Source of the DNA: a virus
Lineage: Duplodnaviria; Heunggongvirae; Uroviricota; Caudoviricetes
Length of the DNA stretch: 17,277 bases
Reading direction: 5' to 3' (one strand)
Virus record (IMG/VR): IMGVR_UViG_2529292908_000014
Location: 1-17,277 of that record
Shown: one piece after another, positions 8,105 to 10,380 of the stretch
Position numbering within the stretch: position 1 is the stretch's first letter
Layout of the letters: each line of letters opens with the position of its first letter
Notes under the pieces: generated by a model
Told to the model about the DNA's origin: nothing
The model's input: the letters and a program-made list of their open reading frames with translations, nothing else
The model's database searches: none
Translations under genes and position numbers: made by a program

Positions 8105-8286
8105 GAGTTTCTCCTGTAAATCTGAGCCACTGACGGCCCGTAAATAACACCCTGTCAAAGGCACAGAAGCCTTTTGCAGGGCGCTATCCCTTAAGGTGCC
8201 TTGTGGTCTGAGTGGACAGGGTAAACGGTCTGGTGTGGTGGGTACTGCTGAGGGAGTTCAGCACCCCGCGGCGGCGGGGTGATAAA

Positions 8287-8591: not shown

Positions 8592-9059
8592 TTAATCAAA
8601 AAGCCCCACCTGGGTGGGGCTTTTCAGCGAAGTCTGTTTTTGTCGTCGGTGTATCAGCTGCCATGCGTACCGGTCTGAAATCCCGTAACGGGGACAAAGC
8701 AGTGCCAGCGCCTGCCGGTGTGAAAATCCGTCTCTGATATGCTGCTGTAAATCAGCCATAAAACGGGCGTTACGCAGAGCACGTAACGCATGATCGCAAC
8801 GGGGAATGTAAAACGGAGCACCGCCAAGAAAGCGGATCAGTTTGTTGATTTCGTCTTCGGTCAGCACGTCATGTAACAGGGCATGGACACCGCCAGTACG
8901 TTCGGCGTGTGCGCCGGTTTTACCGCTTAACGTCACGCCACCAAAAGAACGAATCAACCGGGTCATGGCGGGGAAGCCAATCACGCTAATCAGTTGCTGC
9001 ACGGAATCGGGCAGCAGTGCCTGCGCATCGCGAAGATCTGTTTCACTGAAGGTCTGCAT
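8592..9059 (-). CDS. mor: Mor/C-family transcription activator (middle-operon regulator-like)
   Basis: 155-aa ORF, ATG at 9059 with GGAGA upstream. C-terminal region …LIRFLGGAPFYIPRCDHALRALRNARFMADLQQ…YGISDRYAWQLIHRR matches the Mor/C signature as I recall it (LGG..VYIPR … YG.S…VY.I). Lies immediately after gemA as mor does in Mu; being C instead cannot be excluded. Confidence 0.65.
   Translation of the reverse strand: MQTFSETDLRDAQALLPDSVQQLISVIGFPAMTRLIRSFGGVTLSGKTGAHAERTGGVHALLHDVLTEDEINKLIRFLGGAPFYIPRCDHALRALRNARFMADLQQHIRDGFSHRQALALLCPRYGISDRYAWQLIHRRQKQTSLKSPTQVGLFD
8596..8621 (-). terminator. Hairpin plus short T-tract overlapping the last codons of the mor-like gene (candidate intrinsic terminator, minus strand)
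   Basis: Minus-strand AGCCCCAC-CCAG-GTGGGGCT followed by TTTTGATTAA; 8-bp GC-rich stem, short U-tract. Confidence 0.4.
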
Positions 9060-9121
9060 GATGGCGTCTCCGGTAGTAACTTACTGTTATTATAGCCATA
9101 CATGATCGCCTGTACAGACCA

Positions 9122-9148
9122 CAAAAAAGCCCCTGCAAGGCAGGGGCT
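9122..9148 (-). terminator. Rho-independent terminator-like hairpin between gemA and the mor-like gene (minus strand)
   Basis: Minus-strand AGCCCCTGC-CTT-GCAGGGGCT followed by TTTTTTGT; 9-bp GC-rich stem, 6-T tract; starts 6 nt after the gemA stop. Confidence 0.55.
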
Positions 9149-9154
9149 GATTCT

Positions 9155-9568
9155 TTATTGTTTACGTGCTGCTCTGACTCGTTTTCTGGCGTCTTTTGTC
9201 AGCGCCACCATCACCCCGAAAAGCTGTTCATCCGTCAGCCATTCGATCACATGTTGCTTATACATGTGAGATGCCAGTCCTTCCGCATACACCCAGGAAC
9301 GACCGGCATCAGCCAGTAACGCTTCAATTTTGGATAATACCGATTTTCTGCTCATTGCAACACGAGGGCGGCGACCTTTACCAGCGGGGGCCTTGCGCGG
9401 AAATCCCTGTTCGTGCATGTATTCCCGGATGATGCGCAGTTCATCGAGATTGCAGCGTGTGGTGCTGGTTTTACCTGTCAGGCGGATCAGTGTCTGGCGA
9501 TAAAGAGCATCATCCCACCCCAGATATGCCTGACCGGCTTTAATGGCCCCGATCATCTTTTTCTGCAT
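9155..9568 (-). CDS. gemA: GemA-like regulatory protein (Mu gp16 family)
   Basis: ATG at 9566-9568 preceded by GAGGA; N-terminus MQKKMIGAIKAGQAYLGWDDALYRQTLIRLTGKTSTTRCNLDELRIIREYMHEQGF resembles GemA/DUF1018 proteins as I recall them. The six-frame ORF extends to 9667, but the internal ATG with RBS fits better. Confidence 0.7.
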   Translation of the reverse strand: MQKKMIGAIKAGQAYLGWDDALYRQTLIRLTGKTSTTRCNLDELRIIREYMHEQGFPRKAPAGKGRRPRVAMSRKSVLSKIEALLADAGRSWVYAEGLASHMYKQHVIEWLTDEQLFGVMVALTKDARKRVRAARKQ

Positions 9569-9854
9569 GTTTGTTATCCTCAAAACGCACGGTAAAACGT
9601 GAAACACCAATCCCCAACAGGAACGCGGCGGCACGGTCAAGAGACAGCCACGTCTTGTAATCGCCACGGCGTTCCTGTAGAAAACAGGACACCCCGGCGC
9701 GGCGATTCACAGCGAAGAGGTGATACACACCCCCGAACCGCTGCACGACGAACTCATCCACGCCACCGCTTTCAGCCTGTTGCCTGAAAGCTGCCATTCC
9801 GATTTGTTCAATCTTCATAATGACCAAAACATCATTTTTGGCAGACCAAAACAT
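9540..9854 (-). CDS. Hypothetical early protein (up to 104 aa; start uncertain among 9854, 9818, 9797)
   Basis: Open frame overlapping the gemA start by 29 nt; no convincing Shine-Dalgarno sequence for any start; the longest start lies inside the 28-bp palindrome. Confidence 0.35.
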   Translation of the reverse strand: MFWSAKNDVLVIMKIEQIGMAAFRQQAESGGVDEFVVQRFGGVYHLFAVNRRAGVSCFLQERRGDYKTWLSLDRAAAFLLGIGVSRFTVRFEDNKHAEKDDRGH

Positions 9855-9868
9855 ATGTTTTGGTCTGC
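9841..9868. promoter_or_regulatory. 28-bp perfect palindrome GCAGACCAAAACATATGTTTTGGTCTGC, with a third direct half-site copy at 9822-9832; candidate operator
   Basis: Read directly and checked base by base for self-complementarity; half-site GACCAAAACAT present three times; sits in the 215-bp intergenic gap 9855-10071. Confidence 0.5.
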
Positions 9869-10071
9869 TGTTGGTTATTATTTAATTACTTTGCGTTAGT
9901 GTGATTCTTCCAGCGATTTTGGGCTGCGCTGGGCTTGTTAAGGGAACACATCACAATATCAGCTGTGTTTGTGAACAAACCCATTCTGCGGTTACTGAGT
10001 TTTAGCCATTGCTGGACGCCGCGAGCGTTTCTACAGGTCAAAAGAATTTTTGCTTTACGTTTTTCATCTGA

Positions 10072-10380
10072 TTATTCCCCTGAAATCAGTCCTGAACGGA
10101 TTACTGTTTTTGCAATATGCGCCCGTAATTGCTGCGTTCCGTGGTATTTGATTGCCACATCGCGTAATTTATTAACCAGCTCCCTGAGCTGATACTCTTT
10201 TGCTCCCGGTGTCACCGGAATGATTCCTGCTCTCCGGTATTCCTGAAGCTCCAGCAGGGACTGCCGTAAGAGCGTCCACCACTCTCTGTCTACAATCGGC
10301 CCGCGCATATCAAGCATTTTGTCAGCATCGGCAATCAGTCTGGTCAGGCTCTTATCGCTTATTCTGGTTTGCTGGTTCAC
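10072..10380 (-). CDS. Hypothetical early protein (102 aa)
   Basis: GTG at 10378-10380 overlaps the upstream TGA (GTGA coupling); first ATG at 10317; no recognised motif. Confidence 0.4.
   Translation of the reverse strand: MNQQTRISDKSLTRLIADADKMLDMRGPIVDREWWTLLRQSLLELQEYRRAGIIPVTPGAKEYQLRELVNKLRDVAIKYHGTQQLRAHIAKTVIRSGLISGE

What the first reader, a model, noticed from the sequence alone, without database searches (positions are those of the whole stretch)
9822..9868. 28-bp perfect palindrome with a third half-site in an early-region intergenic gap
GCAGACCAAAACATATGTTTTGGTCTGC (9841-9868) is perfectly self-complementary, and the half-site GACCAAAACAT recurs in direct orientation at 9822-9832. 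The A4/T4 core makes it a poor terminator stem, so it looks more like a dimeric protein-binding operator. It sits in a 215-bp gap inside an otherwise tightly coupled operon, directly upstream of the ORF preceding gemA, and the longest start of that ORF lies in the palindrome centre (CATATG). It could mark an internal promoter or operator, an IHF/Fis-type architectural site, or a recombination or nicking site.
Basis: seen in the sequence. Interest (0 to 1): 0.5.

Follow-up and report, generated by a model that had tools for sequence, protein, structure and literature searches.

The report
Conserved double dyad before a prophage gene
The 28-bp palindrome is real and belongs to a conserved 45-bp pair of phased dyads sitting directly in front of a small gene of unknown function in E. 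coli Mu-like prophages; it is most likely a regulatory site for that gene, but whether it works as DNA or as RNA is unresolved.

Summary
The palindrome (9841-9868) and the third half-site (9822-9832) are exactly as described and are far beyond chance. Three parts of the description need correcting.

- There are four half-sites, not three. They form two CCAAAA-N6-TTTTGG dyads (9846-9863 and 9824-9841) whose centres are 22 bp apart.
- The "215-bp gap" is not empty. It holds a 60-aa gene that carries a 1-nt deletion in this window, so the true spacer is 67 nt.
- The ATG at the palindrome centre is not conserved. The real start is the ATG at 9818.

The element is conserved in 21 distinct E. coli-type sequences that have at least four different upstream genes. 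The half-site cores never vary, while the 6-nt centres do. Eight diverged lineages keep CCA-N12-TGG-N4-CCA-N12-TGG without a single indel.

The element travels with the downstream gene (phrog_7844), not with gemA. It occurs once per prophage. Relatives with different immunity regions carry the same element.

My best reading (0.4) is a tandem binding site for an unidentified dimeric protein that controls the phrog_7844-gemA unit. The main rival (0.3) is a very stable stem-loop in the sense mRNA (-18.4 kcal/mol). Readings as a terminator, an IHF site, a Mor site, a c-repressor site or a transposase site are not supported. Interest is modest.

The parts
9841..9868 (.). 28-bp perfect palindrome (dyad 1 with its extended arms GCAGACC/GGTCTGC)
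   Evidence: As sense-strand RNA it forms a 12-bp stem with a 4-nt loop at -18.4 kcal/mol.
9846..9863 (.). Dyad 1 core, CCAAAA-CATATG-TTTTGG
   Evidence: The cores are invariant and the 6-nt centre is variable in 21 distinct relatives.
9824..9841 (.). Dyad 2 core, CCAAAA-CATCAT-TTTTGG on the + strand.
   Evidence: Its centre lies 22 bp from that of dyad 1.
9869..9885 (-). A-rich 5' flank (minus strand TTAAATAATAACCAACA). It is partly conserved (A-n-T-A-A-y-C-A-A) even where the upstream gene differs. It holds a weak -10-like AATAAT, and as RNA it can pair with the start region.
9540..9818 (-). 92-aa ORF (phrog_7844, no Pfam family). This is the gene the element always accompanies. Its 3' end overlaps the gemA start by 29 nt.
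9155..9568 (-). gemA (PF06252)
9886..10067 (-). Small ORF (phrog_1380 family, 60 aa when intact) that fills most of the supposed gap. It is frameshifted here by a 1-nt deletion near 10059.

Best explanation
The palindrome is one half of a roughly 45-bp cis-regulatory element that belongs to the phrog_7844 gene. The element consists of two phased dyads (CCAAAA-N6-TTTTGG, twice, centres 22 bp or about two helical turns apart) and ends 5 nt before the gene's start codon.

The most likely mechanism is that a sequence-specific dimeric protein binds each dyad, two dimers on the same face of the DNA. This would limit expression of the phrog_7844-gemA unit, either by blocking RNA polymerase that arrives on the early transcript or by occluding a weak internal promoter whose start would fall at the first bases of the palindrome.

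Shown: the anatomy, the conservation pattern, the spacing constraint, the linkage to phrog_7844, and the single occurrence per prophage.

Inferred: that the constraint reflects protein binding to DNA, and that the effect is repression. The binder is unknown. The only factor that always co-occurs is the phrog_7844 product itself, so autoregulation is the most economical guess, with a host factor as the alternative.
For: 1. The structure is far beyond chance, and it is two dyads with the same half-site at 22-bp spacing.
2. In 21 distinct E. coli-type sequences none of the 24 half-site core positions varies. In contrast, 3 of 6 centre positions vary in dyad 1 and 4 of 6 in dyad 2, at a rate similar to nearby third-codon positions.
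3. The element is kept although the upstream gene is replaced in at least four contexts. Megablast homology in E. coli genomes ends 4 to 17 nt beyond the palindrome in some relatives and about 60-70 nt beyond it in others.
4. Eight lineages with 62-98% protein identity align without any gap over 41 nt as ACCAaA-N10-tTGg-N4-CCAAAata-N3-GgatTGGt. Over the same lineages the distance from dyad 2 to the ATG varies from 2 to 10 nt.
5. In the diverged lineages no significantly stable RNA fold is predicted (z from 0.0 to -1.6, against -5.3 here) and the predicted pairings differ between them. CCA-N12-TGG is nevertheless kept in dyad 2 of all eight lineages and in dyad 1 of six.
6. The element accompanies phrog_7844 even in a non-Mu-like phage context (L035). 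It is absent from Klebsiella phage Kp4852-3, which has a 64%-identical GemA but no phrog_7844 gene.
Against: - No binding protein is identified. The phrog_7844 model is not a recognised DNA-binding fold.
- No convincing promoter overlaps the site. The hexamers score 8-9 of 12 in three upstream contexts and none is found in the fourth.
- The site lies inside an operon, and in two lineages it lies inside the 3' end of the upstream ORF. That is unusual for an operator.
- The motif occurs nowhere else as a dyad in a complete 38-kb prophage.
- All variable positions in the palindrome arms proper lie in the C/A-rich arm, and 3 of those 4 are transitions that keep G-U pairs in the sense RNA. The only change on the G/U-rich side is at the loop-closing position. 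This asymmetry is what an RNA helix predicts.
- Between the E. coli type and L024, two inner pairs changed on both sides.
Confidence: 0.4

Rival explanations
1. The element acts as RNA. In the polycistronic early mRNA the palindrome folds into a very stable intercistronic stem-loop. A weak second hairpin, or a lower helix formed with the A-rich flank, touches the start region. The stem-loop would act as a barrier to RNA decay or a processing site. It could also tie translation of the phrog_7844 gene, which has no Shine-Dalgarno sequence, to events upstream.
For: - Stem 1 is -18.4 kcal/mol. The 69-nt leader folds at -23.5 kcal/mol with z = -5.3, and the 106-nt version has z = -4.65.
- The element is on the transcribed strand, directly 5' of a start codon with no Shine-Dalgarno sequence.
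- Seven positions carry one-sided changes that keep G-U or standard pairs on the sense strand. The G/U-rich arm is invariant apart from its loop-closing base.
- L024 and L025 keep a 7-8-bp hairpin in which two pairs changed on both sides.
- In L024 and L029 the upstream stop codon sits between the third and fourth half-sites, which is a classical layout for translational coupling.
Against: - No common structure and no significant stability is found in five diverged lineages.
- The strict absence of indels, including in the would-be loops, is not expected for simple hairpins.
- The energy needed to open the start region is 7.9 kcal/mol. That is ordinary among 16 gene starts of the window, which range from 3.0 to 16.6.
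- No Rfam family matches.
- Stem 1 is too stable for the alternative pairing (-3.2 kcal/mol) to compete, so a switch is implausible.
Confidence: 0.3
2. An internal sigma-70 promoter, the counterpart of the 'semi-early' promoter annotated upstream of gemA in phage Mu, lies in the A-rich flank. Its transcript would start at the first bases of the palindrome, which would then serve as its operator or as a 5' stem-loop.
For: - The Mu record annotates a semi-early promoter at 8151-8217, just before gemA, and that region also contains a palindrome.
- ATCACA-17-AATAAT (9 of 12) ends 8 nt before the palindrome.
- Comparable hexamers are present in two other upstream contexts.
Against: - The fourth upstream context (C type, found in several relatives) has no acceptable -10 or -35.
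- The -35 would lie in non-homologous DNA.
- None of the diverged lineages except L090 has a candidate promoter.
- There is no sequence similarity to the Mu promoter region.
- The element is absent from a phage with a close GemA.
Confidence: 0.12
3. The palindrome is an intrinsic terminator, either for the sense strand or for antisense transcription entering from downstream.
For: The consensus scan flags the + strand: a stem at 9839-9870 followed by TTGGTTATTA. The stem is strong.
Against: - On the sense strand the stem is followed by CAAAAAUG, with no U-tract. The early transcript must also continue into phrog_7844 and gemA.
- Canonical terminators exist nearby, at 9128-9148 plus a T6 run and at 8599-8624.
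- On the + strand there is no upstream promoter-like site and nothing obvious to terminate.
- The second dyad and the cross-lineage footprint remain unexplained by this reading.
Confidence: 0.05
4. The element is a recombination or nicking site, or a passive relic of the exchange of gene modules at this junction.
For: - Homology between relatives breaks a few to a few tens of nucleotides upstream of the palindrome.
- The 11-6-11 layout with a variable 6-bp centre resembles recombinase core sites.
- From memory, and not tested here, the inner 9 positions resemble the left half of the Mu gix site.
Against: - There is only one copy per prophage, and no recombinase gene is annotated in the Mu-like prophage of strain C5.
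- The homology break lies outside the palindrome, not at its centre.
- Purifying selection on four half-sites is not explained by a relic.
Confidence: 0.05

Closest known systems
Tandem palindromic operators of small autoregulated operons (for example toxin-antitoxin operators, lacO-type operators at +1, phage 434 ACAA-N6-TTGT operators)
   Same: Dyad half-sites separated by a fixed, freely varying spacer. Two sites about two helical turns apart. Position immediately upstream of the first gene of a two-gene overlapping unit.
   Different: No promoter is demonstrably overlapped. No DNA-binding fold is recognised in the adjacent gene products. The site sits inside a long early operon and occurs only once.
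Phage Mu 'semi-early' promoter region upstream of gemA (GenBank AF083977, 8151-8217)
   Same: A non-coding spacer with a palindrome in front of the gemA-containing unit of a transposable phage.
   Different: There is no sequence similarity. Here the element precedes phrog_7844, a gene that Mu lacks. It is absent from a phage with a 64%-identical GemA.
Intercistronic stem-loops in phage and bacterial polycistronic mRNAs (decay barriers, T7-type RNase III sites, translational-coupling hairpins)
   Same: A stable sense-strand hairpin between two cistrons, with no terminator tail and wobble-compatible variation.
   Different: The structure is not conserved in diverged relatives, while the sequence boxes and their spacing are. 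The start region is not unusually masked.
Mor/C activator sites of Mu middle and late promoters (dyad with a 6-bp spacer centred near -43.5)
   Same: A dyad with an N6 spacer. The palindrome centre is 44.5 bp upstream of the start predicted from a CATTAT hexamer (my own reading).
   Different: No copy lies upstream of the lysis or late operons. The hexamer is not conserved in other lineages. A transcript from it would lack the conserved start codon.

Membership tests
Intrinsic (Rho-independent) terminator | Stable G+C-containing stem-loop | tested here: met
   12-bp stem with 6 G-C pairs, -18.4 kcal/mol
Intrinsic (Rho-independent) terminator | U-tract immediately 3' of the stem on the transcribed strand, at the end of a transcription unit | tested here: not met
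   The sense-strand tail is CAAAAAUG, and phrog_7844 and gemA follow in the same orientation. Only the + strand has a U-rich tail.
Dimeric repressor operator | Dyad-symmetric half-sites, with several sites in helical phase | tested here: met
   Two CCAAAA-N6-TTTTGG dyads 22 bp apart. The cores are invariant in 21 variants, and the register is kept in 8 lineages.
Dimeric repressor operator | Overlap with a promoter that it controls | tested here: inconclusive
   Weak hexamers (8-9 of 12) in three upstream contexts and none in the fourth
Dimeric repressor operator | A cognate DNA-binding protein | not testable with these tools
   The phrog_7844 model shows no known DNA-binding fold. The c repressor is unlikely because heteroimmune relatives share the element.
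Mu semi-early (gem) promoter | Homology to Mu 8151-8217, or constant association with gemA | tested here: not met
   No similarity to the Mu region. The element is absent in Kp4852-3, which has a 64%-identical GemA.
Mor/C-type activator site | The same dyad upstream of middle or late promoters of the phage | tested here: not met
   No other CCAAA-N8-TTTGG with 1 mismatch or fewer in the complete C5 prophage
IHF site | WATCAANNNNTTR consensus | tested here: not met
   No match with 1 mismatch or fewer between 9800 and 9900
Mu-type transposase end site or c-repressor operator | The motif is shared with attL/attR or operator sites and changes together with them | tested here: not met
   GACCAAAA also occurs once in the c-ner region and once near attL in some relatives. 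However, the element is unchanged where those sites differ (C5 has GATCAAAA; relatives have different operators), and the attL motif is unchanged where the element differs.
Known RNA families (Rfam 15) | A covariance-model match at the gathering score | tested here: not met
   No hit at the gathering threshold. The best E-value hit is a plastid 3'UTR hairpin at 20 bits against 55.8 required.
Translational operator or start-site-masking hairpin | The start region is unusually inaccessible | tested here: not met
   Opening energy is 7.9 kcal/mol, against 3.0-16.6 for 15 other gene starts in the window
Serine-invertase (gix/hix) or other site-specific recombination site | Two sites plus a recombinase | tested here: not met
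   Single copy, and no recombinase annotated in the C5 prophage. The resemblance of the half-site to gix is recalled from memory only.

The most novel reading that the evidence does not exclude
phrog_7844 plus its double dyad is a self-contained mobile cassette. Its small product, an alpha/beta protein whose model most resembles the RNA-binding ribosomal protein eL38, would bind its own leader as DNA or as RNA and regulate itself. That would define a new family of autoregulators that has inserted next to gemA in enterobacterial transposable phages.
Probability: 0.15. Interest if true: 0.55.

Novelty: new member of a known kind. Interest (0 to 1): 0.35.

Why it matters
The semi-essential early region of Mu-like phages is mostly genes of unknown function, with few mapped control signals. 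This element is a conserved, strongly constrained control site in front of the unit that contains gemA. It is a concrete handle for asking how gemA and its neighbour are expressed, possibly in the lysogen, as has been reported for the Mu gem operon. It is also a handle for finding what the phrog_7844 protein does.

The finding also corrects annotation. The 104-aa start codon used in some RefSeq records is probably wrong, and a 60-aa gene in the "gap" is missed or frameshifted. Apart from that, the element is an ordinary kind of feature, either an operator or an intercistronic hairpin.

Tried and rejected
- Rfam, at gathering and permissive thresholds: nothing.
- Search for the half-site or dyad elsewhere in the window and in a complete prophage: none as a dyad.
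- Exact 16-mer scan of IMG/VR. All full copies lie upstream of phrog_7844 genes, and the other hits share only the 16-mer, with no dyad structure around it and no phrog_7844 start downstream.
- c-repressor or transposase-enhancer link. GACCAAAA occurs in the c-ner region and near attL of some relatives, but it does not change together with the element across heteroimmune relatives or across genera. Rejected.
- Terminal repeats of the prophage: no similarity to the element.
- Mor-site reading. The geometry fits a CATTAT hexamer, but there are no other copies and the hexamer is not conserved. Rejected.
- A CAGACC pair 22 nt apart downstream of mor. The 6-mer is common (26 copies in the window) and such a close pair is expected by chance.
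- IHF consensus: absent.
- Start-region masking: the opening energy is ordinary.
- Attenuator-like switch: the alternative helix (-3.2 kcal/mol) cannot compete with stem 1 (-18.4 kcal/mol).
- Function of phrog_7844. No Pfam family and no solved-structure analogue with a clear function; the viral fold library returned only uncharacterised or unnamed proteins among its significant matches.
- More distant homologues (Yersinia plasmids, Vibrio, Pseudoalteromonas) do not carry the boxes.
- Literature. The paper cited for the Mu semi-early promoter (PMID 9454718) is not held. Searches for 'semi-early' found nothing.

Full report
**Setting**

All genes of the window run on the minus strand. It is the early region of a Mu-like prophage. 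The order is transposase A (17000-14934), B (14915-14022), a string of small genes, a 102-aa ORF (10380-10072), the region in question, a 92/104-aa ORF (9818 or 9854 to 9540), gemA (9568-9155, PF06252), mor (9059-8592, PF08765), and then lysis genes. The nearest relatives are Mu-like prophages in 75 of 5426 complete E. coli genomes. Strain C5 is 98.8% identical over the query.

**The observation**

The 28-bp sequence at 9841-9868 is a perfect palindrome, and GACCAAAACAT recurs at 9822-9832. Three copies of the 11-mer compare with 0.48 expected. Arms of 14 bp exceed anything seen in 200 simulated sequences, where the maximum was 11. The window holds only three perfect inverted repeats with arms of 9 bp or more.

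The third half-site is not alone. It is followed by an inverted TTTTGG, so there are two CCAAAA-N6-TTTTGG dyads, at 9846-9863 and 9824-9841, with centres 22 bp apart. On the coding strand the second dyad ends 5 nt before the ATG at 9818.

**Corrections to the description**

- The "215-bp gap" is mostly a gene. Window 9901-10082 matches small annotated genes of Stx phages, P1-like phages and phage CurroJimenez, and the translated ORF hits phrog_1380. Strains C5 and RM9088 and CurroJimenez read ATGAAAAACCGT where the window reads ATGAAAAACGT, a 1-nt deletion that splits the 60-aa ORF. The real spacer is 67 nt (9819-9885).
- The ATG in the palindrome centre is incidental. Relatives have CATGTG, CATGTT or CATGTA there. 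Three of the four RefSeq annotations examined start at the downstream ATG. The M-K-x-E N-terminus is kept in most distant homologues.
- The stem is not weak. As RNA it is -18.4 kcal/mol. What is missing for a sense-strand terminator is the U-tract.

**Conservation**

I collected 48 loci of the E. coli type, which give 21 distinct sequences. The upstream gene differs in at least four ways, yet the element is present in all. In some E. coli genomes megablast homology ends 4-17 nt beyond the palindrome, and in others about 60-70 nt beyond it.

Within the element the 24 half-site core positions never vary. The linker TCTG and the last 16 nt before the ATG are almost invariant. In contrast, 3 of 6 centre positions vary in dyad 1 and 4 of 6 in dyad 2.

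Homologues with 62-74% protein identity come from Leminorella, Intestinirhabdus and several metagenomic phages, one of them not Mu-like. They align with the E. coli type without a single gap over 41 nt. The kept positions are ACCAaA, tTGg, CCAAAata and TGG, that is CCA-N12-TGG-N4-CCA-N12-TGG. Over the same lineages the distance to the ATG ranges from 2 to 10 nt.

**What the element belongs to**

It always precedes a phrog_7844 gene. Phage Mu has no such gene and has different sequence upstream of gemA. Klebsiella phage Kp4852-3 has a GemA that is 64% identical, but it has neither the gene nor any palindrome. The element is therefore a feature of phrog_7844, not of gemA.

**DNA or RNA?**

Evidence for a protein-binding DNA site:
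- The same half-site occurs four times, in phase by two helical turns.
- The cores are invariant and the spacers are free to vary.
- There are no indels across lineages, even in what would be RNA loops.
- The boxes persist in lineages whose predicted RNA folds are neither significant (z from 0.0 to -1.6, against -5.3 here) nor alike.

Evidence for RNA:
- The sense transcript folds very stably.
- The variable positions in the palindrome arms proper lie only in the C/A-rich arm. The only change on the G/U-rich side is at the loop-closing base.
- Together with the flank, seven positions carry one-sided changes that keep standard or G-U pairs on the sense strand.
- L024 keeps an 8-bp hairpin with two pairs changed on both sides.
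- In L024 and L029 the element lies partly inside the upstream ORF, with the stop codon between the third and fourth half-sites.

Evidence against a simple masking role for the RNA:
- Opening the start region costs 7.9 kcal/mol, which is ordinary among 16 gene starts of the window.
- Against a switch, the alternative helix is only -3.2 kcal/mol.

I rate the DNA reading at 0.4 and the RNA reading at 0.3. The two could be united if a protein recognises the folded leader.

**Other readings tested**

- Internal promoter. ATCACA-17-AATAAT (9 of 12) ends 8 nt before the palindrome. Two other upstream contexts have 8-9 of 12, and the fourth has nothing acceptable. The Mu record does annotate a semi-early promoter before gemA, and a cited title speaks of constitutive gem expression in lysogens. 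The association with gemA nevertheless fails the Kp4852-3 test.
- Terminator. Only the + strand has a U-rich tail, and nothing there needs terminating.
- IHF. There is no consensus match in the region.
- Mor site. There are no other copies in the prophage.
- c-repressor or transposase site. GACCAAAA occurs once in the c-ner region and once near attL of some relatives. Heteroimmune relatives with different operators keep the same element. C5 has GATCAAAA at attL. Leminorella keeps the attL motif while its element differs. I treat the shared 8-mer as unexplained or coincidental.
- Recombination site. There is a single copy and no recombinase.

**Verdict**

This is a real, conserved, previously undescribed cis element of an ordinary kind.

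Noticed in passing
window 9886-10067 (minus strand), deletion near 10059: A 60-aa ORF (phrog_1380; homologues in Stx phages, P1-like phages and phage CurroJimenez) is split by a 1-nt deletion relative to E. coli C5, RM9088 and CurroJimenez. This is either a pseudogene or a sequencing error. RefSeq does not annotate the intact copy in strain C5.
   Followed up: yes
window 9085-9150 (minus strand): A canonical intrinsic terminator (AGCCCCTGCCTTGCAGGGGC followed by T6) lies directly after the gemA stop. It is followed by a promoter-like TGTACA-16-TATAAT about 30 nt before the mor start. If both are functional, mor would be separated from the early transcript by a terminator and would have its own promoter. 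In phage Mu, by contrast, gemA and mor overlap with no terminator annotated between them.
   Followed up: partly
window 8599-8624: A perfect 12-bp-arm, bidirectional terminator-like palindrome (AAAAGCCCCACC TG GGTGGGGCTTTT) lies inside the last codons of mor.
   Followed up: no
L079 4319 (E. coli C5, c-ner intergenic region); L039, L074, L082 and L087 about 9.4 kb upstream of the element (attL-proximal): The 8-mer GACCAAAA of the half-site occurs once in the early operator region and, in other relatives, once in a conserved attL-proximal sequence (GAAATGACCAAAAACGC). It occurs nowhere else in the 38-kb prophage. No co-variation with the element was found, so the coincidence is unexplained.
   Followed up: partly
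L079 4393-4434 (E. coli C5, just upstream of the ner-like gene; outside the window): Two TATCC-N4-GGATA dyads 26 bp apart also form a larger palindrome (GGATAACAC GGCG GTGTTATCC). They are probably the Ner-type operators of this phage group.
   Followed up: no
window 10072-10380 (minus strand): The 102-aa ORF looks chimeric. Residues 1-51 match phrog_14672 and residues about 60-95 match the C-terminal parts of several unrelated, longer phrogs. Matching regions in relatives carry ead/Ea22-like annotations. This suggests module shuffling in this stretch.
   Followed up: no
window 9540-9854; RefSeq WP_073521072.1 in strain C5: Some RefSeq records annotate the 104-aa form that starts inside the palindrome. 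Comparative data favour the 92-aa form that starts at 9818.
   Followed up: yes
window 8240-8275 (minus strand): A G+C-rich hairpin (CACCCCGC CGC CGCGGGGTG) with no U-tract lies between the 101-aa ORF and the lysis genes, where a middle or late promoter would be expected. No activator dyad was identified.
   Followed up: no
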